Positions 881 to 64,000 of a DNA stretch of 64,000 nucleotides are shown here, piece after piece. This DNA is from a virus (lineage: Duplodnaviria; Heunggongvirae; Uroviricota; Caudoviricetes), in the IMG/VR virus record IMGVR_UViG_3300031760_000006, positions 91,127 to 155,126 of that record; one strand, given 5' to 3'. A program made the position numbers and the translations under genes. Below the pieces are notes generated by a model. The model saw nothing but the letters and a program-made list of their open reading frames with translations, ran no database searches and was not told the DNA's origin. The first letter of the stretch is position 1, and every line of letters begins with the position of its first letter.

Positions 881-950
881 ATTTTTCTCACCTCAACTGC
901 AAATTTATCAAATACTTCTTGTAAGGCATCTGCTCTTCCATCTTCTTTTC

Positions 951-3672: not shown

Positions 3673-3702
3673 CCATAGCCGTGATATTCTGGTGGTATAT
3701 TA

Positions 3703-4252: not shown

Positions 4253-4262
4253 ATGTACCTCA

Positions 4263-48266: not shown

Positions 48267-48354
48267 GTCGTAACCAGAATCACTCACTTGGTGCCACAGT
48301 TCGTACCATATATTAGTCGTAACCAGAATCACTCACTTGGTGCCACAGTTCGTA
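48267..48354. repeat. 40-bp direct repeat GTCGTAACCAGAATCACTCACTTGGTGCCACAGTTCGTAC, two copies with a 48-bp period
   Basis: Identical copies lie at 48267..48306 and 48315..48354. Confidence 0.8.
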
Positions 48355-48542
48355 CTAATCTTACACTCGGAGATGTATCCCCAAGGACATAGTATATCCC
48401 ATGATATTCAGCTAAAACTCAACTGTGGTCAGTTGATACGAGCCGTTGGGAGTCGAACCCATATAGCCACCTATTGGCACGGTCGCAGACTAGGGATTGT
48501 GGGTCTATGGTATTGTTATAGTTGTGGGTCTGGTGTATAGTC

Positions 48543-49220
48543 CTACTTCGCCTTCTTCTCCCACTTCTTCACCTTAAAGGTGAACTTACGTGGTGTGATA
48601 GCCTTGGCTTCAATCATGAAGTCAATGGCATCACGGAGTAAGCCGTCTCTCCATGTAGCATAAGTCTGAGCTGTCCGCAGGATACCTCTCTGATACCTCT
48701 GCTTGCGTGTAGAGTTCTTCTTGCCCATGAAAGCTACAAGTGCCTGCACGGTCTCGATGTGTGCTTCTACACCGTTCTGCTCAAGCCAGTTTGCCAGTGC
48801 GACTACCAGTTTGGTGCTGTCCAAGCTATCAATGTACTCCACGTAGGCGTTATACATCTCACGGTTCACCAGTGCCTGTCCGTCTTTCAAGCGGTCATTC
48901 TTCACCTTTTGAGCGGCCTGTTTAGCGGTCTTGTACTCCTCGATGTCCGCATAGAGCTTGGTATTTTCTTTCCGCAAGTCCAGTATGGTCGCATTCCTCA
49001 CGATAGTCTTCTTCTCCTCGAGTTTGGCGATGTCGGCGTTATTCTGCTCAATCATGCCCTTGCGGTTCGCAATGGAGTTGTTGATTTCATTCAGGGTATC
49101 ATCCAGCTCCAGAATGGCATTGGCATATTTGCCGAGGGTTACACAGAACCCCTTTGCATCCTTACGGTTGAAGTCACACTTGCCAGTCTTGATTTCGCTA
49201 ATTGTTGTGTATGTTGTCAT
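48543..49220 (-). CDS. coiled-coil hypothetical protein. GC content is visibly higher than in the rest of the window.
   Basis: Start moved to MTTYTT, which has an AGGAGG RBS. 225 aa. Confidence 0.45.
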   Translation of the reverse strand: MTTYTTISEIKTGKCDFNRKDAKGFCVTLGKYANAILELDDTLNEINNSIANRKGMIEQNNADIAKLEEKKTIVRNATILDLRKENTKLYADIEEYKTAKQAAQKVKNDRLKDGQALVNREMYNAYVEYIDSLDSTKLVVALANWLEQNGVEAHIETVQALVAFMGKKNSTRKQRYQRGILRTAQTYATWRDGLLRDAIDFMIEAKAITPRKFTFKVKKWEKKAK

Positions 49221-49325
49221 AATAATCCTCCTATTCTGGGGGCATCCCCCTATGCATATTGTGTGTTTTATTATGACCCACAATCCCTCAATGGTCGTTT
49301 GAGTACCCGACAGTAGAAACTTTAG

Positions 49326-49499
49326 TTAAAGTTAAAAATCTTATCAGCTTCCTTTAATTCATTGATATACTCATCAACAATTTTTTCACTCGCAATTGCC
49401 AAAAGACGGTTTTTAAGTTTAACGTAATCCGTTGGCTCTCCCTCGTGTTCGCAAGCGTGTTCTAATATGATAGCATCCATTTCCCATGTAGTCATTTCA
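49326..49499 (-). CDS. small hypothetical protein (57 aa, below the track cutoff)
   Basis: Translated by hand as MTTWEMDAIILEHACEHEGEPTDYVKLKNRLLAIASEKIVDEYINELKEADKIFNFN. Confidence 0.25.
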
Positions 49500-49896
49500 A
49501 TCCCCCCCTAAAAAATCGGTCGGGTGCTCAAATGACCATTGAGTCCTAGCCCGTATGAAATTACCAAGGTACAAGGCGACCGTTTCGGTCTTGGTTTTCA
49601 GTTTCGGTCGAAAGGCTGTTGTCTTTCGACTTGACCCTCTTATACACGATATAAATGAAAAGGCAAATCTTTTTTGAAAGCCTCAAAACCCGCATAAACA
49701 GTGGCTCTTTAAGGTAAAACAAACTATAATTTGTTTGACTTTAGAGGGGGCTGCTTTCAACCCCGAAAGACCCTTTAAACAAGCCACTCTTGGGATGCGG
49801 TCTGCTTCTACACTGACTAAAAAATCAATTCGCAATATTAATCGTTTTTTAACCAATCTCATCTTAAAATTCTTAATCTTTACCCTCATCCATAAC

Positions 49897-49983
49897 TTAT
49901 CCACAATTTATCCACAATTCCACCAACTCCCCATCTCCCCACCGCACTTGACAAAAATCGATTTTTGTGGTATACTATCCACA
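49897..49983. promoter_or_regulatory. cluster of three DnaA boxes: TTATCCACA at 49897..49905 and 49908..49916, cTATCCACA at 49975..49983
   Basis: All three are exact matches to the DnaA box consensus TTATNCACA. The third overlaps the promoter -10 region. Confidence 0.6.
49948..49976 (+). promoter_or_regulatory. sigma70-type promoter TTGACA-17-TATACT (TG-extended) for the rightward arm
   Basis: TTGACAaaaatcgatttttgtggTATACT. A CCACACCAA x3 repeat lies in the 5' UTR. Confidence 0.6.
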
Positions 49984-50079
49984 ACGTCAAACTACGACTA
50001 TTTAATTTCGTTCGTTTGCTACGTTCCCAAACCACACCAACCCACACCAACCACACCACGAAAGGAAGGTGACATTCCA

Positions 50080-52047: not shown

Positions 52048-52908
52048 ATGAAAAAAGGATTAATCGGTGGAATTAGTTTAGCGGTCATCATTCTTTTTAC
52101 TCTCATCAGCTTAATCATTTGCACAGAGAGAATCCCAGTAGGATACGTTGGCGTTGTTTACAGCATGTCAGGCGGTGTCAAAGATGAAACCTTATCTCAG
52201 GGATGGCATATCATTAGCCCAACTAAGAAGATTAAGTTATTCACTATCAGCAACGAACAGTTACTCTTAACCAAAGACAAGAGAGAAGGCAGTGATTCAG
52301 ACGAATCATTTAGAGTATCTACTTCTGATGACGCATCACTTGCCATCTCTTTTCAGATGTCCTACAGATTTAATCCAGCTAAAGTCGTAAATACTTATAA
52401 GCGATTCAAAGGAATGGACGGCGAAGACATTGTCAATCAGCGTGTAAGAACTGTTCTTAAATCTAAGATTTCTGAAATCACTACTAACTATTCTCTTATG
52501 GACATTTACTCAGGCAATCGAGCCGAAATTAACGATAAAATTACGGAATACTTAGACAAGGAATTTGACGAGGAATTTGGAATCGAAGTGATTGATGCTT
52601 CTATTATTGATGCTCATCCCGACAAACAGCTCAAGAAAGCAATTAACAACAGAATTGAAGCACTTCAGAAGAAACAGCAAGCACAGGCAGAGCAGGAAAC
52701 TGCAAAGGTTGAAGCAGGAACTAAATTGATTCAGGCACAGAATGAGGCAGATATTAAAATTACAAAAGCAAAAGCCGAAGCTGAAGCAAATACTATTATC
52801 TCCGCTTCTATTACTAATGAATTAATTAAGATGACTGAGGCAGAAGCTAGAAAGAAGCATGGATGGGTTACCACACAGGGTGTCAGTGCTGTTGTGACAG
52901 ATAAATAG
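52048..52908 (+). CDS. SPFH/band-7 (stomatin/prohibitin/HflKC-like) membrane protein
   Basis: Has an N-terminal TM helix, a PVGYVGVV...SQGWHII SPFH core, and a C-terminal Ala/Glu/Lys/Gln-rich coiled coil. Confidence 0.7.
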   Translation: MKKGLIGGISLAVIILFTLISLIICTERIPVGYVGVVYSMSGGVKDETLSQGWHIISPTKKIKLFTISNEQLLLTKDKREGSDSDESFRVSTSDDASLAISFQMSYRFNPAKVVNTYKRFKGMDGEDIVNQRVRTVLKSKISEITTNYSLMDIYSGNRAEINDKITEYLDKEFDEEFGIEVIDASIIDAHPDKQLKKAINNRIEALQKKQQAQAEQETAKVEAGTKLIQAQNEADIKITKAKAEAEANTIISASITNELIKMTEAEARKKHGWVTTQGVSAVVTDK

Positions 52909-53249: not shown

Positions 53250-54563
53250 ATGAGTTATTGTGCTTACATCACGACAATAAATAGCATCAGTAAGCACCCT
53301 AATGCCGACCGTCTTCAGATAGTAGAAGTATTTGGTCTTCATGTTATTGTTGATAATTCTTACTACAAAGGACAAAGAGTTGTTTACTTCCCTGTTGATG
53401 GTCAGCTAGATTTAGGTTTTGCTGATGAAAATAATTTGATTAGAAAAAAAGATGAAAATGGTAATAATATTGGCGGTTACATGGATGCTAATAAAAGAAA
53501 TATTACTGCCATTAAATTACGAGGAGAAAAGTCAGAAGGATTATTACTTCCTATTGAATCTCTGTCTAAATATACTGATATCACTAAATTAAATGATGGT
53601 GATACAATTACCATCTTGGGTGACGTTGAAATATGTAAGAAATATATCCCAAGAACGAATAGAAGAATAAGAAATGGTAACAACAATCGCAAAAATAAGA
53701 AACACCATGTAGATGTAGCTCCATTATTTGAGCGTCATGTTGAAACAGAACAGCTTGCATATCATTTGAGTGATTTTTATGTTGGTGACCAAATTCAGAT
53801 TACGCTTAAAATGCATGGTACATCACAAAGGACTGGCTATCTTCCTGTGCTACAGGGGTATAAAAGAACTATTCTTGATAAGCTGTTCCGTAGAGAAGGT
53901 AAGCCAATTTATGAATATGGGTATGTTCATGGAACAAGACGTACTGTATTAGACAATTTTGATAACGGGTATTATGGTAATGATTCGTTCCGCAAGCCTT
54001 CGGCAGAATTCTTCGAAGGAAAGCTTCATAAAGGTGAAACTGTTTATTATGAAGTAGTTGGTTATGTTAATGAAACTACGCCAATTATGCCGTCTGGAAA
54101 CAATAAGAAAGTTGGAAAAGATTTTGTCAAACAATATGGTGATACCACTACATTTAATTATAGTTGTGGTAAAGGACAATCTGATTTTTATGTGTATAGG
54201 ATGACAATGACTAACGAAGATGGAGATGTTTTTGAATACTCTCCTCACCAAATTAAATACCGTTGCGAACAAATGGGTTGTAAATATGTCCCAGTCTTTA
54301 TGGAATCTTTTATTCCAAATGGTACAATTGTTAGTGCTGGTGAATGGGTAAAACGATGTGCTGAAGAGTATTATGACGGAGCAGACCCAATAGGTAAAAA
54401 TCACATTAGAGAAGGTGTTGTCATAAGAATTGTTAACTGCCCCAAGTTTACGGCATATAAACACAAGAATTTCAATTTTAAATTATTGGCTGGAATTATT
54501 ACGGACAACTTGAAGGATTCGCAGATTGAGAAAATGTCAGAAGATTTGTTAAGTGAAATTTAA
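53250..54563 (+). CDS. Rnl2-like ATP-dependent RNA ligase fused to an N-terminal tRNA-binding (EMAP/Myf-like OB) domain
   Basis: SKHPNADRLQIVEVFG resembles the tRNA_bind signature. Motif I is KMHGTS (Rnl2 type KxHGxN). Motif IV is EGVVIR. Motif V is YKHKNFNF. Confidence 0.6.
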   Translation: MSYCAYITTINSISKHPNADRLQIVEVFGLHVIVDNSYYKGQRVVYFPVDGQLDLGFADENNLIRKKDENGNNIGGYMDANKRNITAIKLRGEKSEGLLLPIESLSKYTDITKLNDGDTITILGDVEICKKYIPRTNRRIRNGNNNRKNKKHHVDVAPLFERHVETEQLAYHLSDFYVGDQIQITLKMHGTSQRTGYLPVLQGYKRTILDKLFRREGKPIYEYGYVHGTRRTVLDNFDNGYYGNDSFRKPSAEFFEGKLHKGETVYYEVVGYVNETTPIMPSGNNKKVGKDFVKQYGDTTTFNYSCGKGQSDFYVYRMTMTNEDGDVFEYSPHQIKYRCEQMGCKYVPVFMESFIPNGTIVSAGEWVKRCAEEYYDGADPIGKNHIREGVVIRIVNCPKFTAYKHKNFNFKLLAGIITDNLKDSQIEKMSEDLLSEI

Positions 54564-54594
54564 AATAAAATTTAATAAAGAAAAGAGATTTAAA

Positions 54595-54756
54595 ATGATT
54601 AAATTAATTATTGTATTTATTATTGGTTCGTTTTGTGGAGTATTTTTAATCGCCCTTTGTTACAACAGTAAAGTAAGCGAAGAAATCTACGCTGATGTAA
54701 TAAGTAAATTGGAATCAGAAAATAATGATTTAAATAAGGAGAATTCTAATGAATAA
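54595..54756 (+). CDS. small membrane protein
   Basis: The MIKLIIVFIIGSFCGVFLIALCY region is hydrophobic. ATG start with an RBS. The track ORF began at a GTG codon. Confidence 0.3.
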   Translation: MIKLIIVFIIGSFCGVFLIALCYNSKVSEEIYADVISKLESENNDLNKENSNE

Positions 54757-55348
54757 AAAAAGACAGAAATTATTTAATGTTCACATCGTAACTCCCAGTC
54801 ACCCCGCTTTTGAAAAAGCCGAAAAACATCTTGTTGATTATCACACTCATGGCTTGGAAAAATTAGGTTTAAAAAATGTATGTATGTTTTATGATTGTGG
54901 AAACGATGATTTAAAAGTCTCTTCTTATGGAACAACAAGAAATACTGTTTCACGCAAAAGTGTTGAATTATTTTATGATGTCATTGACATGATGATAGAT
55001 GGAGAAAAATTTGAACCGTACCATGTTCATTTTTTAGACGACCCTATAGATGGCACTTACAAGAGGTTTTGGCTCATTGAAAACGAAGATAGTGACAGCA
55101 ACGAGATACGATTAAGAATTATGCCTTTATCTGATGATGTTAATGATTTTGTACCTTATGAAATTACAGAAATTGAAAAAGTAATTACTATTTATGAATC
55201 TTGGATTGATGGTGTAGGTATAATCCCCGAAGGTTTAACTAAACAGGATATTGTTGAAAGAATTGAAGAATTAACTAATAGAACACCTGATGCCTTACTT
55301 GAATACATTAGCTTTCTTAAGTTTATTGAAATGGGAAACGCAATTTAA
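54749..55348 (+). CDS. hypothetical protein
   Basis: 199-aa ORF. Confidence 0.45.
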   Translation: MNKKRQKLFNVHIVTPSHPAFEKAEKHLVDYHTHGLEKLGLKNVCMFYDCGNDDLKVSSYGTTRNTVSRKSVELFYDVIDMMIDGEKFEPYHVHFLDDPIDGTYKRFWLIENEDSDSNEIRLRIMPLSDDVNDFVPYEITEIEKVITIYESWIDGVGIIPEGLTKQDIVERIEELTNRTPDALLEYISFLKFIEMGNAI

Positions 55349-55406
55349 ATTTGATTATTAAAAACTAAAAACTAAAAAAACTGAATAAGTTAAACGAGGT
55401 AAACAA

Positions 55407-55775
55407 ATGAAAATAAGAACAATCTACATCGCCAATGACGGCGAAGAATTCGACTCAAAAGAGGAATGTAAAGCTCATGAGGAACTCATTGCTCCACCAA
55501 GCAGTGAGTCTCTCTTCATGGCAGATAAAGACCTTAATGTAGTTAAAAACACCGGGAATAATGTAGAATCTAAAGCTTATTATATCCAAATAAAAGACCA
55601 AAAAGCTATTGATTGGTTGGCTTGGGTAAGTGAAGAATGGGGCTGCTCTGTTCCTAATAAAATCGGTTGTTTTTATTATGTCGATGGATGGTCTGAGGAC
55701 GGCTGGAATGACATTCAAGAAAAATTCGATGCTGTAAATAAAATCAAAGAAATATTTAAACTGAAGAACAAATGA
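55407..55775 (+). CDS. paralog family member (YIANDGEEFDSKEEC ... WGCSVPNKIGCF)
   Basis: Shares N-terminal and C-terminal motifs with 58218..58589. Confidence 0.45.
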   Translation: MKIRTIYIANDGEEFDSKEECKAHEELIAPPSSESLFMADKDLNVVKNTGNNVESKAYYIQIKDQKAIDWLAWVSEEWGCSVPNKIGCFYYVDGWSEDGWNDIQEKFDAVNKIKEIFKLKNK

Positions 55776-55788
55776 AAGGTTATAACAA

Positions 55789-56301
55789 ATGAAAGGTTAT
55801 AAAGTATTTAACTCCGACTGGACTTGTCGAGGATTTCAATACGAAGTTGGAAAAACATATGAAATGTATGAAACACCAATAATATGTGAAAAAGGTTTTC
55901 ATTTTTGTACAGAATTAAAGAACTGTTTTAATTATTATCCATTTCGTTTTCTTAAAATAAAGATTGCAGAAGTAGAAGCACTTGGCGATTGTTATAATAA
56001 AGATGGTGAAAAATACTGTACAAATAAAATCAAAATTATTCGAGAGATTCCTATTAATAATTTAGAACTAGTTGTTGAACATAAAGTTTTGAGAATGTTT
56101 AGTCTAATAGAATATAATGTCGGAGAAATTGTTGATAGTTCTTGTAAAAATATTGTCTATTCTGATTTTCCAATGCTTGAAGAAAGGGTAACAGTATTGT
56201 CTAAATTGCGTTACCCTAATTACCATTGGATGTATAAAGTACAAGCTTATGTAATTACAGATGTAAAAATTAAAGAGGAGAACGAGGATGAAGGGATATA
56301 A
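55789..56301 (+). CDS. hypothetical protein, tandem paralog 1 (MKGYKVFNSDWTCRGFQYEVGKTYEM)
   Basis: The first 26 aa are identical to the next ORF. Confidence 0.5.
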   Translation: MKGYKVFNSDWTCRGFQYEVGKTYEMYETPIICEKGFHFCTELKNCFNYYPFRFLKIKIAEVEALGDCYNKDGEKYCTNKIKIIREIPINNLELVVEHKVLRMFSLIEYNVGEIVDSSCKNIVYSDFPMLEERVTVLSKLRYPNYHWMYKVQAYVITDVKIKEENEDEGI

Positions 56302-56746
56302 GGTATTCAATTCTGATTGGACTTGTCGAGGTTTTCAGTATGAAGTTGGCAAGACATATGAAATGAATAAAATGCCAGTAATCTGCGAATGCGGCTTTCA
56401 TTTTTGCACAGACCCAAAAGACTGCTTCAGATATTATCAATTTTGGGACGATGTTAAAATTGCCGAGATTGAAGCACTAGGCGACATCGACAGAGAACAC
56501 ATGAGCGGTAAATATTGCACGAACAAAATAAAAATAATAAGGGAATTATCTTTAAAAGATGCAAAAATAGAGACTGAAACTATAAGAGTAAATCCAATAC
56601 TTTTTTTAGTCAATTATAATATAATTTTACATCCACCATTGGCTTGTCCAGCAAAACTAGAAGAACATACTTTTATAAATCCAAAAGATGTCAGTTATGT
56701 AAAACTAGAAGTAATCAAATCTATTACTTTTTCGGAGGAAGAATAA
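56288..56746 (+). CDS. hypothetical protein, tandem paralog 2
   Basis: Same N-terminal 26 aa. The conserved KYCTNKIKIIRE block is present. Confidence 0.5.
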   Translation: MKGYKVFNSDWTCRGFQYEVGKTYEMNKMPVICECGFHFCTDPKDCFRYYQFWDDVKIAEIEALGDIDREHMSGKYCTNKIKIIRELSLKDAKIETETIRVNPILFLVNYNIILHPPLACPAKLEEHTFINPKDVSYVKLEVIKSITFSEEE

Positions 56747-57538
56747 ATGGCATTTAATGACGAACTTGGCAACAGAATGAAACAAAATTATGAAACAATT
56801 TCTAAAACAAGATTAATTCGTAGAACACCAGTAGCCATTCGCATTGATGGTAAAGCTTTTCACACTTTTACTAGAGGTTTTAAAAAGCCATTTGATGATA
56901 TTCTTATCAAATCAATGCAAGAGACCATGAAATATCTTTGTGAGAATATTCAAGGCTGTGTACTTGGTTATACACAGTCAGATGAGATTACATTAATTCT
57001 ACAGGACTACAAAACTTTTGAGACTCAAGCTTGGTTTGATTATGAAGTCCAGAAGATGTGCAGCGTTTCGGCATCAATGGCAACGATGGTTTTTAACAAA
57101 AAGTTTAAAGAGATGGCTTATTGTTTTGTTGATGAAAATGAAGATAATGATAGTATTTGTAATTACTGTGACACTTTAATGAAAGCCGTAGAAAAAGGAG
57201 CAATGTTTGACTCTCGCTGTTTCAACATTCCTAAAGAAGAGGTAACCAATCTACTATTTTGGCGACAGCTTGACGCATCCCGAAATTCCGTTCAGATGGT
57301 TGGTCGTGCTAATTTTTCTCATAAAGAATTACATGGTAAAAACTCCTCTCAGATTGATGAGATGTTATTAGCAAAAGGAATTGATTTTCATACATACCCT
57401 ACACATCAAAAACGTGGTTCTTGTTGTATTAAAGATAAAGATGGACATTGGTTTGTTGATAATGAGATTCCTATGTTTAAAGGCGAAGGTAGAGAATATA
57501 TTGAGAAATTGATTAATTGTGAGGAGGTAACAGCATGA
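56747..57538 (+). CDS. Thg1-like protein (tRNA-His guanylyltransferase family, 3'-5' nucleotidyltransferase)
   Basis: AIRIDGKAFHTFTRGFKKPFDD and GYTQSDEITLIL match the Thg1/TLP palm motifs. Confidence 0.75.
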   Translation: MAFNDELGNRMKQNYETISKTRLIRRTPVAIRIDGKAFHTFTRGFKKPFDDILIKSMQETMKYLCENIQGCVLGYTQSDEITLILQDYKTFETQAWFDYEVQKMCSVSASMATMVFNKKFKEMAYCFVDENEDNDSICNYCDTLMKAVEKGAMFDSRCFNIPKEEVTNLLFWRQLDASRNSVQMVGRANFSHKELHGKNSSQIDEMLLAKGIDFHTYPTHQKRGSCCIKDKDGHWFVDNEIPMFKGEGREYIEKLINCEEVTA

Positions 57539-58038
57539 AAACCCTGTTAAATGAGAACACGCCAGAATTTCAGAAGATTTACAAAGAGTGGCAAGAATAT
57601 GTTACACATATAAAAACTATTGAAGAATTTAATGATTTCTTTAATGATTTAATGAATAATTATTATTTTGATTACGGAACGCAATGTAGAGCAATAGGAT
57701 TATTAGCTGCAGCTGCCGCTTGGCTTGGTGCTAATACTGAACTTATCACTGGGTTTCAAGCAAGTTGTGCAATGTGGGAATTCATTCGGAATTGGATTTA
57801 TATAGATAACAAAACAGGATTAAAAATGGTGGATTATGACAATATGCTTTACCCTCAATACGAATATAAATTTGACAAAACAATATCCCCTGAAACTTGG
57901 AGTGCCTTACAGAACGAAGCCAGCAGAAAACTTCAAGAATCAAGTGGGTTTGTTCATCCAGATGTTGAGGAGCATTGGAAAAGCATTGTTGATGGAAAAG
58001 TGCCTTTTGGTTACAAAGTAAAAAATGAGGAGAATTGA
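57535..58038 (+). CDS. hypothetical protein
   Basis: 167-aa ORF with a 4-nt overlap to the Thg1-like gene. Confidence 0.45.
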   Translation: MKTLLNENTPEFQKIYKEWQEYVTHIKTIEEFNDFFNDLMNNYYFDYGTQCRAIGLLAAAAAWLGANTELITGFQASCAMWEFIRNWIYIDNKTGLKMVDYDNMLYPQYEYKFDKTISPETWSALQNEASRKLQESSGFVHPDVEEHWKSIVDGKVPFGYKVKNEEN

Positions 58039-58039
58039 T

Positions 58040-58234
58040 ATGGCTAAATTCAGAGAAACACCTTGTATCTATTACATTTGCAAAGGCGAATGCGAAAAGA
58101 ACCGTGACGCATCTTACAAAGGTTACTGTCAGAAGTGCGACAAGTATACTCCCAGAGCTAAGATGAAACATAAAAACCGTAAGAAAGAATATAACGAGAA
58201 ACAGCGAGGTAATATTAATGGAAAGGATTATTAA
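58040..58234 (+). CDS. small basic Cys-rich protein
   Basis: Start at MAKFRETP, 7 nt after a GAGGAG RBS. Confidence 0.35.
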   Translation: MAKFRETPCIYYICKGECEKNRDASYKGYCQKCDKYTPRAKMKHKNRKKEYNEKQRGNINGKDY

Positions 58235-58589
58235 GTATATTGCTTCTGATGGTAAAGAATTTAGTGACGCAAATGAATGTATGAATTATGACATTAATCT
58301 TTTTAAACCAAATGAAGATGAGTTGGTTTTATTAGATGTATCTGCAAATGTTCTTCCTATATCTTTCCAAAACGTCTGTGACTGTGAGTATATGTCGATT
58401 AAAAGCCACAAGGCTTTGAAATATGTAGAAATGATTGGCGAAGAGTATGGTTTTGCCGTGCCAGATAAATGCGGTAACTTTTTTTGTGATGACACATCGC
58501 CTAGCTGGTGGTCTGATGTTAAAAAAATATTTGACGATGCTTTAAAAATTGCAAAGGCTTTTGGGGTAAAGATTAATGAAGAAAAGTAG
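58218..58589 (+). CDS. paralog family member (KYIASDGKEFSDANEC ... YGFAVPDKCGNF)
   Basis: Shared motifs with 55407..55775 and 51050..51319. Confidence 0.45.
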   Translation: MERIIKYIASDGKEFSDANECMNYDINLFKPNEDELVLLDVSANVLPISFQNVCDCEYMSIKSHKALKYVEMIGEEYGFAVPDKCGNFFCDDTSPSWWSDVKKIFDDALKIAKAFGVKINEEK

Positions 58590-58767
58590 AAAATCAAGGT
58601 ACGCTACGAAAGAAGAAGTTAGAGAAGTTATCAAGAAATGGGAAAAATCTGATAAGAAGATGAGTGATAAAGATATATCCATACTTGTTTACTGTGCCAA
58701 GGGTTGGTATGCAGACAGAGAATATTCATCTTGGGATTCTGGAGATGATGGAGCTTTCACAGGTTAG
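58576..58767 (+). CDS. small hypothetical protein
   Basis: 63-aa ORF. Confidence 0.3.
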   Translation: MKKSRKSRYATKEEVREVIKKWEKSDKKMSDKDISILVYCAKGWYADREYSSWDSGDDGAFTG

Positions 58768-58775
58768 GGGGATAT

Positions 58776-59717
58776 ATGAATATAAAACCAAAATTAATCA
58801 TGCTATGCGGATTAAGCGGTAGTGGCAAATCAACCTATGCTAGAGATTTAATAAAACGTAAAAAACCCAACGATGATTCGGATGATGCAAATAACACTTT
58901 CCTCTTCTCTTCTGATGATTTGAGACAGGAATTATTTGGTGATGTCAATGACCAATCACATAATCAGGAATTGTTTCAAGAGCTTCGTCGCAGAATTAAA
59001 GATTGTCTCAGAAAAGGCAACAATGCAATATATGACGCAACCAATATTAAGTCAAAACTAAGAATTGCTTTCTTGAATGAGTTAAAAAACATTGATTGCT
59101 TCAAGTCTTGTCACATCATTTACCGTCCTTATAATGAGTGTTTACTAATGAATCGTGGTCGAACAAGAAGTGTGCCAGACTATGTAATCACAAGACAGTA
59201 TATGAATTGGTACACGCCTTGGTATTTCGAAGGCTGGGATGAAATCAAATGGATAGGTGATGATACGTTTTCTTGTTACTTTGCAAATGAGATAGCAAAA
59301 TATAATAATTTTTTACAGCATAATCATCATCATGAATTGACACTTGGACAGCATTGTTTTGAAGCCAAAGAAATAGTTGCGATGAATGTAGAAGATAATT
59401 TAAACTTGACAATTGCTGCTTGGTTACATGATATTGGCAAACCTTTTACGAAAACTTTCAAAGATTCTAAAGGCAATCCAACTAAGGATGCCCATTATTA
59501 CCAGCATCATTGTGTAGGTGCTTATGATGCACTTGGATTGTATTATGGAAGAAATCCAGAAGTTAACAAAATAAAGATATCTGCTTATATCACATACCAC
59601 ATGCATCCTTATTTTTGGAAAAATCCAAAGACAGAAGCAAGATATAGAAAACGATGGGGTAATGAATTTTTTAATGACATCATGTTGTTGCACGAAGCAG
59701 ATAAATTGGCACATTAG
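58776..59717 (+). CDS. P-loop polynucleotide-kinase-like domain fused to HD-superfamily phosphohydrolase
   Basis: Walker A motif LCGLSGSGKST. The C-terminal HD motif is LHDIGK, with His residues upstream. Confidence 0.55.
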   Translation: MNIKPKLIMLCGLSGSGKSTYARDLIKRKKPNDDSDDANNTFLFSSDDLRQELFGDVNDQSHNQELFQELRRRIKDCLRKGNNAIYDATNIKSKLRIAFLNELKNIDCFKSCHIIYRPYNECLLMNRGRTRSVPDYVITRQYMNWYTPWYFEGWDEIKWIGDDTFSCYFANEIAKYNNFLQHNHHHELTLGQHCFEAKEIVAMNVEDNLNLTIAAWLHDIGKPFTKTFKDSKGNPTKDAHYYQHHCVGAYDALGLYYGRNPEVNKIKISAYITYHMHPYFWKNPKTEARYRKRWGNEFFNDIMLLHEADKLAH

Positions 59718-59725
59718 GAGGAGTT

Positions 59726-60169
59726 ATGAGTAATTTTGTTACTGTCTACAAGTGTCCTTTTAAAGAAGAATGCACAGAGGTGTATACACTTAGGTATTTT
59801 GGTGATAATTGTGTTAGAAATAGATGTTGTTGCATATTGGAGGTTGACTTAGACCATGAAAACCGTCCAAAAACGGCAGAAAATTTTTTAAAAAGTGTAC
59901 TAGAGTATTATGGCGACAATTTGACCAAAGACGAGAAAAACTACATAGAATACTGCGTACATAAATTCTATAAAAATCTAAAAGGAGAAAACATGAATAA
60001 TAAAAAGAAAATCACCTTTACAATAGAAGCTGACGATTTTGATTCGGTTGATAGCATCGAGGTTAATTTCAAAGACAAAAACAGCTATGACCATTTAACT
60101 ACAAAAACAACTTACGATGAGAATGGCAGACCTGTTCGCATGGTAAGTGAATACGCAAACGAGGAGTAA
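59726..60169 (+). CDS. hypothetical protein
   Basis: 147-aa ORF. Confidence 0.4.
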   Translation: MSNFVTVYKCPFKEECTEVYTLRYFGDNCVRNRCCCILEVDLDHENRPKTAENFLKSVLEYYGDNLTKDEKNYIEYCVHKFYKNLKGENMNNKKKITFTIEADDFDSVDSIEVNFKDKNSYDHLTTKTTYDENGRPVRMVSEYANEE

Positions 60170-60171
60170 AT

Positions 60172-60405
60172 ATGAGCAACAAAATTATTAAAGATAGAAT
60201 CTTAGAAACAGATAAAGTCGATGCCGACAATTTAAACAACGAACTACTCAGAATCACTGTCGGTAATCGTACTATGGACTTTAACGAATCAACTTTCCCA
60301 TACGCTATCAAAATCATTGTAAACCACTGGCTTGATAGAAAGCGGTTTAAAGCTGGTTATTGGAAGAAATGGGAACGAGCAAGAAAGAATAACGGAGGAA
60401 ATTAA
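60172..60405 (+). CDS. small hypothetical protein
   Basis: 77-aa ORF. Confidence 0.35.
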   Translation: MSNKIIKDRILETDKVDADNLNNELLRITVGNRTMDFNESTFPYAIKIIVNHWLDRKRFKAGYWKKWERARKNNGGN

Positions 60406-60406
60406 A

Positions 60407-60604
60407 ATGAGAAATCCGAATAGATTAGACGCCTTTTACGATGAATTTAGAGAGTTACATAAAGAATGTTTTCCAGATTGGCGATTTGGTCAGTTAATTA
60501 TTAATTTTTTTAGTTCCTTTAATAGTGACCCTTGGTTTTATGAAGAAGATAAAATGTTGAAATTATTTAAAGATTATTGCAATAAATATGGGAGATTACA
60601 ATGA
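60407..60604 (+). CDS. small hypothetical protein
   Basis: Start at MRNPNRLD with a GGAGG RBS. Confidence 0.35.
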   Translation: MRNPNRLDAFYDEFRELHKECFPDWRFGQLIINFFSSFNSDPWFYEEDKMLKLFKDYCNKYGRLQ

Positions 60605-60798
60605 GGTTGTGGACTAAGTGCGACAGATGCGGAAAATACATTGCTGTAAATTTAGACCGTGGAGCAAAGAACGATGTTTATAAAGTTTCTTGCAATGACG
60701 TAGAACTTGCTACTCTTTGTGTTACTTGTCATCAGTATTTAAATAACTGGCTTAAAGGTCGTGGAGACTACGGAGTTATAAGAGTTGAAGATAATTAA
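60601..60798 (+). CDS. small zinc-ribbon protein (CDRCGKY...CVTCHQY)
   Basis: 65-aa ORF. Confidence 0.35.
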   Translation: MRLWTKCDRCGKYIAVNLDRGAKNDVYKVSCNDVELATLCVTCHQYLNNWLKGRGDYGVIRVEDN

Positions 60799-60985
60799 AA
60801 GGAGAAATACGGTAACATGAAATCTGATTTTATAATAAACGAATATGAATTTAAAGCGGTGATTACTGGTAAAATCATCGGCGAAAGCTACATAGATGCA
60901 TTAGAAAATATGTTTATCCCCGGCATGATGACTGAGGTAAATAAAGTAAAGCTTAAAGAGATTGATAAAGTTGGAGAAAATATAA

Positions 60986-61291
60986 ATGATTAATTATAAA
61001 TTTAGTTTCAAAGATACTTTAGAACGAGAAAAGCATATGGTGTTTACAAGTGATATGTCAGAACGAACAATGAAAGCATTGGCTCACCATGATAATGTCA
61101 TTAAAGCGTTAGAAAAACAAATACCTAAGAGACCTATTTGGGAAGGTGACGGATATTCTGACGGAGAGATGGTTTATGACACATGGTATTGTCCTAATTG
61201 CGATTATGGTTTTGATGAAGATGAGCCTCACTGGTTTTGTCCAGTGTGCGGACAGGCAATTGATTGGAGCGAAGAAGGAGGCGACAAATGA
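60986..61291 (+). CDS. zinc-ribbon protein (WYCPNCDY...WFCPVCGQ)
   Basis: 101-aa ORF. Confidence 0.4.
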   Translation: MINYKFSFKDTLEREKHMVFTSDMSERTMKALAHHDNVIKALEKQIPKRPIWEGDGYSDGEMVYDTWYCPNCDYGFDEDEPHWFCPVCGQAIDWSEEGGDK

Positions 61292-61506
61292 GAAAAGAAG
61301 ATGTTGTTTTTCATGAAGACGATGAATATGTTGTAATGGAAGAAGACGGATGGAAGATTTTACTATGTGTAAATCATTTTAAATGCATGTTTGGATACGA
61401 TGTAGAAAATCCCAATGGTGGTAGCTACGGTTTGTATACATGGGATATCTATGAAGCAATTGAAAAATTAAATGAATTAAAAAAGGAATATAAGAATGAA
61501 AGATAA
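61264..61506 (+). CDS. small hypothetical protein
   Basis: 80-aa ORF. Confidence 0.3.
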   Translation: MERRRRRQMRKEDVVFHEDDEYVVMEEDGWKILLCVNHFKCMFGYDVENPNGGSYGLYTWDIYEAIEKLNELKKEYKNER

Positions 61507-62617
61507 TAATCATAATAATGGTAAAAAAATAATATACCTAGATTCGGCGGCAACAACTAAACCAACTCCTCAAGTGATAAACGATTTTGTTTGGGCATCT
61601 AAAAACTGTTGGTATAATCCATCTGCTATTTATCAAGGCGGTGTTGAAGCGAGAACACTAATAGAAAATGCTCGTAAAATTTGTGCCGAAAGCATTAATT
61701 GCTCCCCAGAAGAGATTTATTTTACATCTGGCGGTACTGAAAGTAATAATTGGGCATTAGCAGACATTAAAACGTACTGCTCATGGATAGAACATCCAAG
61801 TGTTTATGACAACTGCTATTATTCGTTATTTAAAGTTGATGAACATGGTTTTATTTACAAAGGTGGTTTATATAGCACTGAAGAAGATGATGTTGTAAGT
61901 ATCCAATTGGCAAACAATGAGATAGGCACTATACAGGACATCGAATCAATATCTAAAATAGTTCATGATGCAAATGCTATTCTTCATGTTGATGCTGTAC
62001 AGGCTTATATGCATATTCCAATTGACGTAAAAGAATTGGGCATTGATATGATGAGTGTATCTGGACATAAATTCGGAGCATTAAAAGGGACTGGTTTTTT
62101 ATATGTAAATAAACATATTAATTTTGAACCAATGTTACTTGGTGGCCATCAAGAGATGAATATGAGAGCTGGCACAGAGAATGTTGCAGGAATTTACGCA
62201 ATGGGTAACAGAGTAAAGTACATCATGGAACATGGTTACAATGTAGTTCATGTGGCAAATATCACTCGTAAACTTAGCAAAGCTATTTACGAAAAATGCG
62301 GTGACTTATGTGAGATAATTGCTAACGGTGCTGAAGATACTAAATGGCGGTTGCCTAACAATCTAAGTCTCACCTTCCGAGGAATCAATGCAGAAGCTCT
62401 TTTGATTATGTTATCCGAACAAGGTATCTATTGTAGTGCTGGTTCTGCTTGCAGTGCCGGGTTGCCCGAGCCGAGCCGTGTGCTTAAAGCGATTGGATTA
62501 AGTGATGAAGATGCTAAGAGTACTTTAAGATTTACAGTTACTGAAGATTTGACTGATGAAGATATTGATTATGTTGCTGATACATTGAAACGATTGATTC
62601 CAATGGCTAAAAAATAA
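61496..62617 (+). CDS. cysteine desulfurase (class V PLP aminotransferase, NifS/IscS-like)
   Basis: The N-terminus YLDSAATTKP matches. FTSGGTESNNWAL matches. The PLP-lysine motif is SVSGHKFGALKGTGFLYV. Confidence 0.8.
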   Translation: MKDNNHNNGKKIIYLDSAATTKPTPQVINDFVWASKNCWYNPSAIYQGGVEARTLIENARKICAESINCSPEEIYFTSGGTESNNWALADIKTYCSWIEHPSVYDNCYYSLFKVDEHGFIYKGGLYSTEEDDVVSIQLANNEIGTIQDIESISKIVHDANAILHVDAVQAYMHIPIDVKELGIDMMSVSGHKFGALKGTGFLYVNKHINFEPMLLGGHQEMNMRAGTENVAGIYAMGNRVKYIMEHGYNVVHVANITRKLSKAIYEKCGDLCEIIANGAEDTKWRLPNNLSLTFRGINAEALLIMLSEQGIYCSAGSACSAGLPEPSRVLKAIGLSDEDAKSTLRFTVTEDLTDEDIDYVADTLKRLIPMAKK

Positions 62618-62678: not shown

Positions 62679-64000
62679 ATGGGAAAATATGGTTACAAAA
62701 TACACAACTATGCCGCAGGTTCTATTTACGAGAAAATGACAGGTGTTCGTGAAATTTACGATTGCAAAGACGCTATGCTCACAAACAGTCTATTTTTAGA
62801 CTACATAAAAACATTACCAGATTTTGAAGCAATTAACGATGAGTCCACTCGTGATATTATCTGTATTGAGTTTAATTACGGTTCTAGAACTTACGAACAA
62901 GAAAAGAAGCATTTAGAAAAATTAATTAAAGAAACTGAATTAGATACTAAACGTACTGAAGATAAAAAGGCGGCACGATTAGAACGGCTACATGAATTGT
63001 TAGATTCGTGTGAAACCAATAAGGATAAATACGACAAAAAATCTGCCGCCGAAATTCGTAAAATCTTCTACAACGAAGGCGTGACCATCGAGTATAAGCA
63101 CGTTAATAAGTTTAAGAAAGAGACATTTACTTATATTAATTATAAGATGCTCTATCGTACTCCCGGCAAGGCGAAAAAAGGTAGCTGTATGTTTATCAAG
63201 GATTCCCTGTATGAGAAGGCTAGAAATTTTTTATACATGGGAATCCAGTTGCCTGAGAAGAATGCTCCCATTGTCGAAATTGGTGCTTACTCTTCCCTCG
63301 CAACTTCTACTATTATTGATAAGATACAGATAAAACCAGAAGAGATTCTCATTGTTGAAGATGTAGATTCAGTTTTTAAAACAAAGGTAGTATCTGTAGA
63401 ATTGGATGAAGATAAATGGTGTCAGGCGGTAACAAGAAACGATTACACGGTTAAGAATACTCTTTTTGATGGTCAGGCATTAATTGATTCTTCTATCTTT
63501 CCTGATTGGGGCAATGGGTACGTTTTATTAAGACAGCACTTTTTTAAAGCCGCTGCTTTTTGCTCCCATATTCAGAAGTTTTTTAAAGACTATTATGGTG
63601 ATGATTACGAAACTGCCACTGTTAAAGATATGTGGGGTCGAGAAATACCTGTTAAAAATATTAAGTTTATAACTACTGACAATGCTATCAAATGGCTTAA
63701 GTTTGACATTAGCTTTAACTATTGGAGTGAATGGGTAAGATTAAACGGTAGCTATTTCGGTATTGTTAAAACAGCTCATCCAAGTAAATTAGGCGATGTC
63801 CAGCGTATGAGTTATCAAATGATAAATGCGTTAGATATTGACACAATGGATAAAGTTGTTGAAACATCTGTTGATTATATTCACAGTCTTAAAAAAGATA
63901 ATGATGTCTTCTTAGACTATTTAGATAAAAATAAGAACTTTTCTAATGATTATGAAGCATTGGTCGCTTTAGTTCATCAAGATAGGGATTTTCTTAGAAG
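62679..64000 (+). CDS. large hypothetical protein, 5' partial view. The ORF continues past the window end.
   Basis: The frame is open from ATG 62679 to 64000 (more than 440 codons, no stop when read by hand). RBS AAGGGG. Absent from the track because it is incomplete. Confidence 0.45.
   Translation, partial: MGKYGYKIHNYAAGSIYEKMTGVREIYDCKDAMLTNSLFLDYIKTLPDFEAINDESTRDIICIEFNYGSRTYEQEKKHLEKLIKETELDTKRTEDKKAARLERLHELLDSCETNKDKYDKKSAAEIRKIFYNEGVTIEYKHVNKFKKETFTYINYKMLYRTPGKAKKGSCMFIKDSLYEKARNFLYMGIQLPEKNAPIVEIGAYSSLATSTIIDKIQIKPEEILIVEDVDSVFKTKVVSVELDEDKWCQAVTRNDYTVKNTLFDGQALIDSSIFPDWGNGYVLLRQHFFKAAAFCSHIQKFFKDYYGDDYETATVKDMWGREIPVKNIKFITTDNAIKWLKFDISFNYWSEWVRLNGSYFGIVKTAHPSKLGDVQRMSYQMINALDIDTMDKVVETSVDYIHSLKKDNDVFLDYLDKNKNFSNDYEALVALVHQDRDFLR

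What the first reader, a model, noticed from the sequence alone, without database searches (positions are those of the whole stretch)
53250..62617. Phage-encoded RNA/tRNA repair and modification cluster: OB-fused Rnl2-like ligase, Thg1-like enzyme, kinase-HD, cysteine desulfurase
Four enzymes sit within 9 kb on one strand. The first is an RNA ligase with a Rnl2-type motif I (KMHGTS) and motifs IV and V, fused to an N-terminal tRNA-binding OB domain (HPNADRL signature). The second is a Thg1-like 3'-5' nucleotidyltransferase (RIDGKAFHTF...KPFDD, SDE), a family known to repair 5'-truncated tRNAs. The third is a P-loop kinase fused to an HD phosphohydrolase, which could heal ends as in T4 Pnkp but with a different phosphatase fold. 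The fourth is a NifS-like cysteine desulfurase, which could donate sulfur for tRNA thiolation. Together they look like a counter-defence kit against host anticodon nucleases or tRNA-cleaving toxins, built from components different from the T4 Pnkp/Rnl1 pair. I know of no characterised phage Thg1-like protein in this context.
Basis: partly seen in the sequence, partly recalled or inferred. Interest (0 to 1): 0.82.

Follow-up and report, generated by a model that had tools for sequence, protein, structure and literature searches.

The report
Phage RNA-repair gene island
A large uncultured gut phage carries a loose cluster of RNA end-repair genes (a ligase, an end-healing kinase-phosphatase and a "reverse" 3'-5' polymerase, with a sulfur-donating enzyme nearby); this kind of phage kit has already been predicted in the literature but never tested experimentally.

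Summary
All four ORFs are real and their domain assignments hold, with one correction. The ligase is Rnl5-like (DraRnl/NgrRnl architecture: N-terminal OB, nucleotidyltransferase, no C-terminal domain), not Rnl2-like.

Comparative genomics supports a functional module. Across 29 kinase-HD lineages, the two gene families most often found beside kinase-HD are this ligase (16) and the Thg1-like protein (10–13). They occur in several different gene orders and often abut. Relatives usually add a short RlaP-like nucleotidyltransferase, which this window lacks.

NifS is linked in only about 4 lineages. There it sits immediately upstream of the ligase and downstream of a tRNA gene array.

In the closest relative the kinase-HD cassette is missing.

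The most likely function is healing, 5'-end restoration and sealing of broken structured RNA (tRNA), probably as counter-defence.

Novelty is modest. Thg1–polynucleotide kinase–RNA ligase linkage and a phage repair role were predicted in 2010 and 2021, and ligase+kinase-HD pairs are already annotated in Bacillus phages. This is a new variant of a known, still uncharacterised, kind.

The parts
53250..54563 (+). Rnl5-like ATP-dependent RNA ligase (437 aa). N-terminal OB domain (about residues 1-130, HPNADRL at 16-22), a basic linker, and a nucleotidyltransferase domain. Motifs: I KMHGTS (K187, nt 53808-53825), III YYEVVG (E268), IIIa FYVYRM, IV REGVVIR (E388), V YKHKNFNFK (K404/K406). Only 26 residues follow motif V, so there is no C-terminal domain.
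   Evidence: Pfam PF21189 8.5e-7 and PF09414 3.7e-5. PHROG 968 1e-65. Profile A2 versus PDB: NgrRnl 5cot 1.1e-9, T4 Rnl2 0.04. NCBIfam TIGR02306 (DraRnl) 9e-17, below its cutoff. Foldseek: NgrRnl 1e-12, T4 Rnl2 3e-5, on a low-confidence model. K187, E268, E388, G389, K404 and K406 are invariant in 53 diverse relatives.
56747..57538 (+). Bacterial-type Thg1-like protein (TLP), a 3'-5' nucleotidyltransferase (263 aa). Catalytic carboxylates lie in RIDG (residues 32-35) and SDE (78-80).
   Evidence: Pfam Thg1 3.6e-31. PHROG 4717 3e-86. PDB 4kgk BtTLP 2e-55 over the full length, versus eukaryotic Thg1 about 1e-5. Motif positions.
58776..59717 (+). Bifunctional Pnk-HD end-healing enzyme (313 aa). 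The N-terminal 5'-OH polynucleotide kinase has the P-loop GLSGSGKST (12-20) and SSDDLR (D47/R50). The C-terminal HD phosphohydrolase has H193, H218-D219, H244, H275 and D309.
   Evidence: Pfam AAA_33 7e-18, HD 1.9e-4. PDB sequence match to the CthPnkp kinase 4gp7, 1e-9. NCBIfam bacter_Pnkp 2.4e-12; the HD half resembles tRNA_CCA_actino at 5e-5. AF2 pLDDT 92.8. Foldseek CthPnkp kinase TM 0.76, then PSTK, PNKP, T4 Pnk, Pnkp1. Catalytic residues are invariant in alignments A4 and A7.
58221..59723 (+). Cassette-like indel carrying orf123, orf63 and the kinase-HD gene. It is absent from the closest relative (L003), whose flanks are 85-92% identical.
   Evidence: blastn of L003 against the window. 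Gene list of L003.
61496..62617 (+). Class I (NifS/IscS-type) cysteine desulfurase (373 aa). PLP lysine in SGHK (K192); catalytic cysteine loop SAGSACS (C319). It is a lineage-restricted accessory of the island.
   Evidence: Pfam Aminotran_5 4e-59. NCBIfam FeS_nifS 1.7e-92, but 310 bits is below the 530-bit cutoff; IscS and DndA about 1e-62. It lies adjacent to the ligase in L166, L167, L170, L171 and L162 and within 10 kb of kinase-HD in 33 of 80 loci, but in only 4 of 29 lineages.
55789..56746 (+). Two tandem DUF7666 paralogues directly upstream of the TLP (the relative L003 has one copy). Function unknown, and not conserved with the module elsewhere.
   Evidence: Pfam DUF7666 5.8e-30 and 4.8e-35. 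L003 has a single copy. No hits in the other loci.
52048..52908 (+). SPFH/Band-7 (prohibitin-like) membrane protein upstream of the ligase. It is a conserved neighbour in some relatives and probably not part of the repair chemistry.
   Evidence: Pfam Band_7 1.2e-28. Same position in L003. Near the TLP in Fusobacterium phage Fnu1. Present in 5 of 75 TLP loci and 10 of 80 kinase-HD loci.

Best explanation
The region is the RNA-repair island of a large (about 150 kb) uncultured phage of gut Clostridia.

Inferred pathway:
1. A host or competitor ribonuclease breaks a structured RNA, most plausibly a tRNA, leaving 2',3'-cyclic-phosphate (or 3'-phosphate) and 5'-OH ends, sometimes with loss of nucleotides.
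2. The Pnk-HD protein heals both ends. Its HD domain removes the 2',3'-cyclic or 3'-phosphate to give a 3'-OH. Its P-loop kinase phosphorylates the 5'-OH.
3. The Thg1-like protein uses the 5'-phosphate end and the base-paired opposite strand as template to add back nucleotides missing from the 5' side, polymerising 3'-5'.
4. The Rnl5-like ligase, a nick-sealing enzyme type that needs a duplex context and an RNA 3'-OH strand, seals the resulting nick.

The cysteine desulfurase is an optional add-on. It may supply sulfur for re-thiolation of repaired or phage-encoded tRNAs (s2U34 or s4U8).

Shown here: the domain identities, intact catalytic residues, and conserved gene linkage.

Inferred: every enzymatic activity, the substrate, the order of steps and the counter-defence purpose.
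For: Enzyme identities and intact active sites.

Linkage:
- In Bacillus phage PBC2 and its relatives, the ligase homologue is immediately followed by a full-length kinase-HD homologue (30% identity, E 7e-41).
- In 80 kinase-HD-centred viral loci the ligase lies within 10 kb in 46, mostly under 3 kb away, and abuts in 10.
- After collapsing to 29 lineages at 50% identity, the ligase is present in 16, the TLP in 13, and both in 7.
- An unbiased ranking of all neighbouring families puts the ligase first and the TLP second.
- Gene order varies while proximity is kept: LIG-RlaP-Kin-TLP, LIG-TLP-RlaP-Kin, TLP-LIG-Kin, Kin-LIG-TLP, and this window's LIG..TLP..Kin..NifS.
- Other recurrent neighbours are recognised RNA-repair parts: RlaP, a short RlaP-like NTase, Rnl1-type ligase, DUF2828/DUF7788 and a calcineurin-like phosphoesterase.
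- tRNA arrays lie just upstream of NifS-LIG-RlaP-Kin in several lineages.

Established knowledge:
- TLPs repair 5'-truncated tRNAs in vitro and need a 5'-phosphate (PMC3061083 and PMC4820378 abstracts).
- Rnl5 ligases seal duplex nicks with an RNA 3'-OH strand (PMC4408790).
- Runella HD-Pnk is a proven HD plus kinase healing enzyme encoded next to a ligase (PMC6097658).
- Thg1-PNK-ligase linkage was predicted to mean tRNA repair (PMC2904730).
Against: - No activity was measured.
- In this window the genes are interspersed with about 16 unknown small ORFs rather than forming a compact operon.
- The closest relative lacks the kinase-HD cassette at this site yet keeps the ligase, TLP and NifS, so the parts are separable.
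- About 50 of 75 TLP loci have no partner within 10 kb.
- The window lacks the RlaP-like gene that usually accompanies the module.
- There are no tRNA genes in the 64 kb.
- DraRnl, the founding Rnl5 enzyme, has a DNA-repair phenotype (PMC5397189), so RNA need not be the only substrate.
- The ligase falls below the curated cutoffs of both Pfam RNA_ligase and NCBIfam TIGR02306, and its structural model is poor.
- The loci are heavily sampled from a few gut metagenomes, so lineage counts are small.
Confidence: 0.6

Rival explanations
1. This is a tRNA maturation and modification island rather than damage repair. The TLP proofreads or completes the 5' ends of phage-encoded tRNAs, as in mitochondrial tRNA 5'-editing or G-1 addition. 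NifS feeds thiolation of those tRNAs. The ligase and kinase-HD process phage tRNA precursors or introns.
For: tRNA arrays of 7-15 genes lie directly upstream of NifS-ligase-kinase-HD in several lineages, almost always including tRNA-Gln(UUG), a species that is 2-thiolated in bacteria (the thiolation point is my own knowledge). The authors of phage Bc431v3 proposed that its Thg1 modifies phage or host tRNAs (PMC3601020).
Against: No tRNA-His was found in any neighbouring array. Most loci, and this 64-kb window, have no tRNA genes nearby. The other recurrent neighbours (RlaP, Rnl1, calcineurin-like phosphoesterase, DUF2828) point to break repair. A healing kinase-phosphatase has no obvious role in ordinary bacterial tRNA maturation.
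Confidence: 0.15
2. This is a DNA (or RNA-primed DNA) nick-repair system. Pnk-HD heals 5'-OH/3'-phosphate DNA breaks made by host nucleases, and the Rnl5-like ligase seals nicks whose 3'-OH strand ends in ribonucleotides, supporting phage genome replication or repair.
For: Deleting DraRnl sensitises Deinococcus to ionising radiation and delays genome reassembly (PMC5397189). Runella HD-Pnk is described as a DNA/RNA end-healing enzyme (title cited). NAD-dependent DNA ligase and PD-(D/E)XK nucleases recur near kinase-HD.
Against: The phage already encodes an NAD-dependent DNA ligase (19943-21916). The strong TLP, RlaP and Rnl1 linkage and the tRNA-array context are RNA-specific. The kinase is closest to RNA-repair kinases (CthPnkp, Pnkp1, PSTK).
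Confidence: 0.1
3. There is no functional coupling. The four genes are independent accessory genes that happen to sit in the same variable early-gene region. NifS is an Fe-S or sulfur auxiliary metabolic gene, or serves DNA sulfur modification.
For: Many unrelated small ORFs are interspersed. Close relatives differ by cassette-like gain or loss of kinase-HD. NifS is linked in only 4 of 29 lineages. A DndB-like ORF exists elsewhere in the window, and NifS scores 3.5e-62 against the DndA model.
Against: The ligase and the TLP are the top two families associated with kinase-HD across lineages, with varied gene order and frequent abutting genes. No DndC, DndD or DndE is present in the window, and the DndB-like gene is 38 kb away on the other strand.
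Confidence: 0.15

Closest known systems
[quoted passage not shown]
   Same: The architecture matches: a signature N-terminal OB domain, a nucleotidyltransferase domain with motifs I-V, and no C-terminal appendage. It is the best profile and fold match. Phage homologues of DraRnl were already noted.
   Different: The window protein is about 100 residues longer, with a basic linker and an insertion between motifs I and III. Motif I is KxHGTS (Rnl2-like) rather than KLDGSS. It scores below the TIGR02306 equivalog cutoff. It belongs to a distinct, very large phage and gut-metagenome subfamily (3538 representatives).
Bacterial Thg1-like proteins (BtTLP, PDB 4kgk), and the Thg1-polynucleotide kinase-RNA ligase neighbourhoods predicted by Anantharaman, Iyer and Aravind 2010
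   Same: It aligns full-length to BtTLP at E 2e-55 with conserved catalytic carboxylates. It shows the same predicted association with a polynucleotide kinase and an RNA ligase.
   Different: It is phage-encoded and has an insertion of about 22 residues at 122-152. The partner kinase is fused to an HD domain. The 2010 paper emphasised MACRO partners, which are not seen here.
Runella slithyformis HD-Pnk, encoded next to a ligase (Munir and Shuman 2017)
   Same: It is a single polypeptide combining an HD phosphoesterase with a 5'-OH polynucleotide kinase, encoded next to an ATP-dependent ligase.
   Different: The domain order is reversed: kinase at the N-terminus and HD at the C-terminus. The Runella ligase partner did not seal standard substrates.
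T4 Pnkp + Rnl1 tRNA repair against the PrrC anticodon nuclease; bacterial Pnkp/Hen1
   Same: The logic is the same: a kinase plus a 3'-phosphoesterase heal the ends and an ATP-dependent ligase seals them. The kinase fold is shared (T4 Pnk and CthPnkp hits).
   Different: The phosphatase is HD rather than HAD (T4) or calcineurin-type (CthPnkp). The ligase is a nick-sealing Rnl5 type rather than the loop-sealing Rnl1 or Rnl4 type. A 3'-5' polymerase is added. There is no Hen1 methyltransferase.
Ligase + 'polynucleotide kinase' gene pairs annotated in Tsamsa-like Bacillus phages (PBC2, Kirov, Thrax1/3, vB_BcoS-136)
   Same: These are homologous ligase (48-50% identity) and kinase-HD (about 30% identity) genes lying adjacent on the same strand.
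   Different: No TLP or NifS was seen within 9 kb of the pair in the one locus inspected, PBC2. Other Bacillus phages (FADO, PK-3) carry both a TLP and a kinase-HD, but far apart.

Membership tests
Rnl5 RNA ligase (DraRnl/NgrRnl) | Signature N-terminal OB domain preceding the nucleotidyltransferase domain | tested here: met
   Pfam PF21189 8.5e-7, above its cutoff. Profile A2 aligns residues 5-193 to NgrRnl 8-179 at E 1.1e-9.
Rnl5 RNA ligase (DraRnl/NgrRnl) | Covalent nucleotidyltransferase motifs I, III, IIIa, IV and V with the lysine nucleophile | tested here: met
   K187, E268, E388-G389 and K404/K406 are invariant in 53 diverse relatives. 49 of 53 relatives match Pfam RNA_ligase.
Rnl5 RNA ligase (DraRnl/NgrRnl) | No C-terminal appendage after the nucleotidyltransferase domain | tested here: met
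   Motif V ends at residue 411 of 437. The definition is taken from PMC4408790.
Rnl5 RNA ligase (DraRnl/NgrRnl) | Reaches the curated equivalog score of NCBIfam TIGR02306 | tested here: not met
   60.9 bits versus a cutoff of 151. This is a divergent Rnl5-like subfamily, not an orthologue of DraRnl.
Rnl5 RNA ligase (DraRnl/NgrRnl) | Seals 3'-OH/5'-PO4 nicks in duplexes whose 3'-OH strand is RNA | not testable with these tools
   Requires a biochemical assay.
Rnl2 RNA ligase (T4 Rnl2) | Rnl2-specific C-terminal domain, with closest similarity to the Rnl2 nucleotidyltransferase | tested here: not met
   There is no C-terminal domain. T4 Rnl2 reaches only E 0.04 by profile. By Foldseek it scores 3e-5 over the NTase alone, versus 1e-12 over the full length for NgrRnl.
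tRNA_bind (Trbp111/EMAPII-type) OB domain | Pfam PF01588 match above its cutoff | tested here: not met
   E 0.0025, 18.3 bits versus a cutoff of 27, covering residues 84-106 only. Fold resemblance is weak, E 0.01-0.5.
Thg1 superfamily, bacterial TLP clade | Thg1 domain with the catalytic Asp (RIDG) and Asp-Glu (SDE), and closer to TLPs than to eukaryotic Thg1 | tested here: met
   Pfam Thg1 108 bits versus a cutoff of 29. BtTLP 2e-55 versus yeast or human Thg1 about 1e-5; the motifs are aligned.
Thg1 superfamily, bacterial TLP clade | Template-dependent 3'-5' nucleotide addition to 5'-truncated tRNA | not testable with these tools
   Requires a biochemical assay.
5'-OH polynucleotide kinase (Pnkp-type P-loop kinase) | P-loop plus the catalytic Asp/Arg motif, and a Pnk-like fold | tested here: met
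   GxxxxGK[ST] and SSD47..R50 are invariant. CthPnkp kinase E 1e-9 by sequence; TM 0.76 and rmsd 2.9 A by fold.
HD phosphohydrolase | H...HD...H...H...D metal-binding residues | tested here: met
   H193, H218-D219, H244, H275 and D309 are invariant in 40 homologues. Pfam HD 22.1 bits versus a cutoff of 22.0, which is borderline.
Runella-type HD-Pnk | N-terminal HD followed by C-terminal Pnk | tested here: not met
   The order here is Pnk (1-160) then HD (185-313).
T4 Pnkp | Kinase fused to a HAD (DxDxT) 3'-phosphatase | tested here: not met
   The C-terminal domain is HD and there is no HAD match.
Class I cysteine desulfurase (NifS/IscS) | Aminotran_5 fold, PLP lysine (SGHK) and the catalytic cysteine loop (SxGSAC) | tested here: met
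   Pfam 4e-59. K192 and C319 motifs are present. The best NCBIfam models are NifS and IscS.
Class I cysteine desulfurase (NifS/IscS) | Reaches an equivalog cutoff (NifS, IscS or DndA) | tested here: not met
   310 bits versus 530 (NifS), 210 versus 643 (IscS), 211 versus 480 (DndA).
Dnd DNA phosphorothioation system | DndA together with DndC, DndD and DndE | tested here: not met
   Only a weak DndB-like ORF at 23238-24518. No DndC, DndD or DndE turned up among the 72 other window ORFs.

The most novel reading that the evidence does not exclude
The conserved Pnk-HD / TLP / Rnl5-like ligase module (with RlaP in relatives) performs templated gap repair of double-stranded RNA stems. After end healing, the reverse polymerase refills nucleotides lost from the 5' side of a break, using the paired strand as template, and hands a duplex nick to a nick-sealing ligase. 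In some lineages the adjacent NifS then restores thio-modification of the rebuilt tRNA.

This would give the first physiological role to both bacterial-type TLPs and Rnl5 ligases. It would also define a repair-plus-remodification counter-defence against nucleases that excise nucleotides from tRNA.
Probability: 0.25. Interest if true: 0.7.

Novelty: new variant of a known kind. Interest (0 to 1): 0.45.

Why it matters
The physiological substrates of Rnl5 ligases are described as unknown in the papers read here. Bacterial Thg1-like proteins are described as of unknown function (PMC5041481 abstract), and their proposed tRNA-repair role rests on in vitro and computational work.

A phage module that repeatedly links these two enzymes to an end-healing enzyme offers a genetic setting in which to find those substrates. 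It could also identify which host nucleases they answer.

The homologous ligase+kinase-HD pair in cultured Bacillus phages, and the NifS-ligase-RlaP-kinase-HD block in cultured Oscillospiraceae isolates, make this testable. The finding itself, however, largely confirms published predictions rather than revealing a new principle.

Tried and rejected
- **Nucleotide similarity.** Megablast of the 9.4-kb region against 50,697 phage records found no match, so no close cultured relative exists.
- **Structured RNAs.** There are no tRNA genes in the window and no Rfam family at gathering score.
- **Transcription signals.** Promoter and terminator counts equal the shuffled expectation, so the scan is uninformative for operon structure.
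- **Ligase versus PDB.** A single-sequence phmmer search found nothing meaningful. A shallow profile gave only E 0.02. A deeper profile built from cluster representatives was needed.
- **Ligase structure.** The AF2 model is poor (pLDDT 61), so TM-scores are low and only the ranking was used.
- **Cellular kinase-HD scan.** The genome-contig scan with the kinase-HD alignment failed for lack of a conserved stretch.
- **Literature gaps.** Burroughs and Aravind 2016 (RNA repair systems) and Munir and Shuman 2017 (HD-Pnk) are not held. Their content is cited only through other papers.
- **Dnd-type DNA sulfur modification as the reason for NifS.** Considered and rejected: there is only a weak DndB-like ORF 38 kb away and no DndC, DndD or DndE.
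- **TLP serving a phage tRNA-His.** Considered and found unsupported: no tRNA-His occurs in any neighbouring array.
- **DUF7666 as a module member.** Rejected: it does not recur in the other loci.

Full report
**Setting.** The window is phage DNA.
- A long minus-strand block (1-49.5 kb) encodes a large DNA polymerase, an exonuclease V-like helicase, a DnaB-like helicase, a primase and an NAD-dependent DNA ligase.
- A plus-strand block from about 49.7 kb to the end holds the finding.
- There is no nucleotide-level match among 50,697 phage records.
- The closest relatives are contigs of 130-176 kb from gut metagenomes. Many are binned into Clostridia MAGs (Oscillospiraceae, Lachnospiraceae), and two come from cultured isolates, Hominicoprocola fusiformis and Dysosmobacter segnis.

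**Observation.** All four ORFs are present as described and the quoted motifs are real. Profile searches support each assignment.
- *Thg1-like protein.* It is unambiguous: Pfam Thg1 3.6e-31 and a full-length match to the Bacillus thuringiensis TLP structure 4kgk at 2e-55. Eukaryotic Thg1 scores about 1e-5, so it belongs to the bacterial TLP clade.
- *Kinase-HD.* The P-loop and the polynucleotide-kinase Asp/Arg motif are invariant, as is a complete HD metal-binding set. A confident model (pLDDT 92.8) has a kinase half that superposes best on the Clostridium thermocellum Pnkp kinase (TM 0.76), followed by PSTK, mammalian PNKP, T4 Pnk and Pnkp1 (sequence level).
- *Desulfurase.* It is a class I NifS/IscS-type enzyme with the PLP lysine and catalytic cysteine loop. 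It is not an equivalog of NifS, IscS or DndA.

**Correction on the ligase.**
- Motif I (KMHGTS) does resemble the Rnl2 version (my own knowledge of T4 Rnl2), but the architecture is that of Rnl5.
- The N-terminal domain matches Pfam's PHA02142 OB-fold above threshold, while tRNA_bind stays below threshold.
- A profile of 53 diverse relatives hits Naegleria NgrRnl at 1.1e-9 across the OB domain, linker and motif I. T4 Rnl2 reaches only 0.04.
- NCBIfam's sole hit is the DraRnl model, below its cutoff.
- Foldseek ranks NgrRnl first over the full length and T4 Rnl2 second over the nucleotidyltransferase only, although the model is weak.
- Nothing follows motif V, as Rnl5 is defined.
- The protein is about 100 residues longer than NgrRnl. 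It belongs to a very large phage and metagenome subfamily.

**Is the grouping meaningful?** In the window itself the four genes are spread over 9.4 kb among about 16 small unknown ORFs, so the window alone proves little. Relatives are more informative.
- In Bacillus phage PBC2 the ligase homologue is followed at once by a full-length kinase-HD homologue. The coordinates show the same adjacency in Kirov, vB_BcoS-136, Thrax1 and Thrax3.
- Among 80 kinase-HD-centred viral loci, HMM searches find the ligase within 10 kb in 46, NifS in 33 and the TLP in 20. Among 75 TLP-centred loci the figures are 13, 8 and 19 (kinase-HD).
- Ligase to kinase-HD gaps are mostly under 3 kb and ten pairs abut.
- Collapsing to 29 kinase-HD lineages at 50% identity leaves the ligase in 16, the TLP in 13, both in 7, NifS in 4, and all four genes in 2.
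- An unbiased clustering of every same-strand ORF within 6 kb of kinase-HD ranks the ligase first and the TLP second.
- The next families are recognised RNA-repair parts: Rnl1-type ligase, RlaP, a calcineurin-like phosphoesterase and DUF2828/DUF7788. A 270-residue family missed by Pfam at default thresholds proved to be a short RlaP-like Polβ nucleotidyltransferase.
- Gene order differs among lineages while proximity is kept. That argues for selection on linkage rather than inherited synteny alone.

**Limits.**
- About 50 of 75 TLP loci show no partner within 10 kb.
- The window lacks any RlaP-like gene.
- The closest relative (ligase 93% identical) keeps SPFH, ligase, DUF7666, TLP and NifS but lacks a clean 1.5-kb cassette carrying orf123, orf63 and kinase-HD. 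The components are therefore separable and mobile.

**NifS.** Its linkage is real but narrow. In one large clade it lies immediately upstream of the ligase, with a 24-bp gap in L166, L167 and L170 and a slight overlap in L171. That clade includes the two cultured isolates. In several lineages a tRNA array of 7-15 genes sits just upstream of it. This places NifS in a tRNA-centred island and makes a thiolation role conceivable, but nothing tests that role. No paper linking a phage cysteine desulfurase to RNA ligases was found.

**Mechanism.** The best reading is a heal, restore and seal pathway for broken structured RNA.
- HD removes the 2',3'-cyclic or 3'-phosphate.
- The kinase phosphorylates the 5'-OH.
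- The TLP, which needs a 5'-phosphate and a paired template, refills the 5' side.
- The nick-sealing Rnl5-like ligase closes the duplex nick.

This draws on established properties of TLPs (PMC3061083 and PMC4820378), Rnl5 ligases and HD-Pnk. All steps are inferred. Rival readings are tRNA maturation, DNA nick repair and mere co-location. They are weighed in the rival-explanations section.

**Prior knowledge.**
- Anantharaman, Iyer and Aravind (2010) reported that bacterial Thg1 genes are most persistently linked to a polynucleotide kinase and sometimes to an RNA ligase. They proposed tRNA repair and suggested a phage Thg1 might counter host defence.
- Iyer et al. (2021) listed Thg1, RlaP, polynucleotide kinases, HD-like phosphatases and RNA ligases as jumbo-phage RNA-repair parts.
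- Phage DraRnl homologues were noted in 2015, and a phage Thg1 gene in 2013.
- The TLP is annotated in 164 phage records and the ligase in 370.
- No experimental study of a phage TLP was found.

**Verdict.** This is a new variant of a known, predicted kind of phage RNA-repair system. Its value is as a route to the unknown physiological substrates of TLPs and Rnl5 ligases.

Noticed in passing
window 23238-24518 (-), flanked by 24568-25554 (-) and 22316-23236 (-): A DndB-like ORF (Pfam DndB 4.5e-7, just above its cutoff) sits between two tyrosine-recombinase-like ORFs (Phage_integrase 6.5e-34; MrpR_N_CB 1.3e-13). No DndC, DndD or DndE is present in the window.
   Followed up: partly
window 36621-38033 (-): A reverse-transcriptase-like ORF (Pfam RVT_1 4.3e-18; PHROG 1423) lies inside the phage replication and early region.
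   Followed up: no
window 55407-55775 (+) and 58218-58589 (+): Two small paralogous ORFs (34% identity, E 4e-20) each sit upstream of one repair gene block: DUF7666 x2 plus TLP, and orf63 plus kinase-HD. The second lies inside the cassette that is absent from the closest relative.
   Followed up: partly
window 55789-56746 (+): There is a tandem duplication of a DUF7666 gene directly upstream of the TLP. The closest relative has a single copy.
   Followed up: partly
L056 8249-9055, L004 13420-14232 and about 46 other loci: A family of about 270 residues lies between the ligase and kinase-HD. Its representative gave no Pfam hit at E 0.001. It is a short divergent RlaP-like Polβ nucleotidyltransferase (hhalign 97%, E 4.5e-11; 16 of 22 members hit Pfam RlaP at E up to 1). 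It is absent from this window.
   Followed up: yes
L140 11452-12300 and 13 other kinase-HD loci (5 lineages): A PAPS-reductase-like (PP-loop) protein recurs near kinase-HD (Pfam PAPS_reduct 3.2e-20). It might be a sulfur- or adenylation-related partner of NifS. It is not present in the window.
   Followed up: no
L004 144-1221, L055 863-4004, L114/L116/L121 about 700-4500, L161 2312-5184, L162 297-3863: tRNA gene arrays (7-15 genes) lie upstream, on the same strand, of the NifS-ligase-kinase-HD block. They almost always include tRNA-Gln(UUG) and never tRNA-His.
   Followed up: partly
proteins P0244, P0248, P0255, P0256, P0261: Ligase-family representatives of about 790-810 residues match the profile in two separated stretches. 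This suggests a large insertion (an intein or a homing-endonuclease-like element) or a fusion within the ligase gene.
   Followed up: no
window 52048-52908 (+): An SPFH/prohibitin-like gene sits immediately upstream of the ligase. The same family lies near the TLP in Fusobacterium phage Fnu1, which also shares an exonuclease V-like gene with the window.
   Followed up: no
L004 14686-15903 and 20297-21350: A distant relative carries a PARP-domain protein between the TLP and kinase-HD. Isochorismatase and phosphoribosyltransferase genes, suggestive of NAD salvage, lie just downstream.
   Followed up: no
window 48001-50000: At the divergence point between the minus- and plus-strand gene blocks, GC is locally raised (0.447 against about 0.33-0.37 elsewhere). 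There is no Rfam hit. The best promoter-like site of the region is at 49948-49976.
   Followed up: no
window 62679-64000 (+): A large ORF downstream of NifS runs off the window end. It matches only PHROG 8308 (unknown function, 3.4e-54) and is conserved in the closest relative as a 563-residue protein with no Pfam domain.
   Followed up: no
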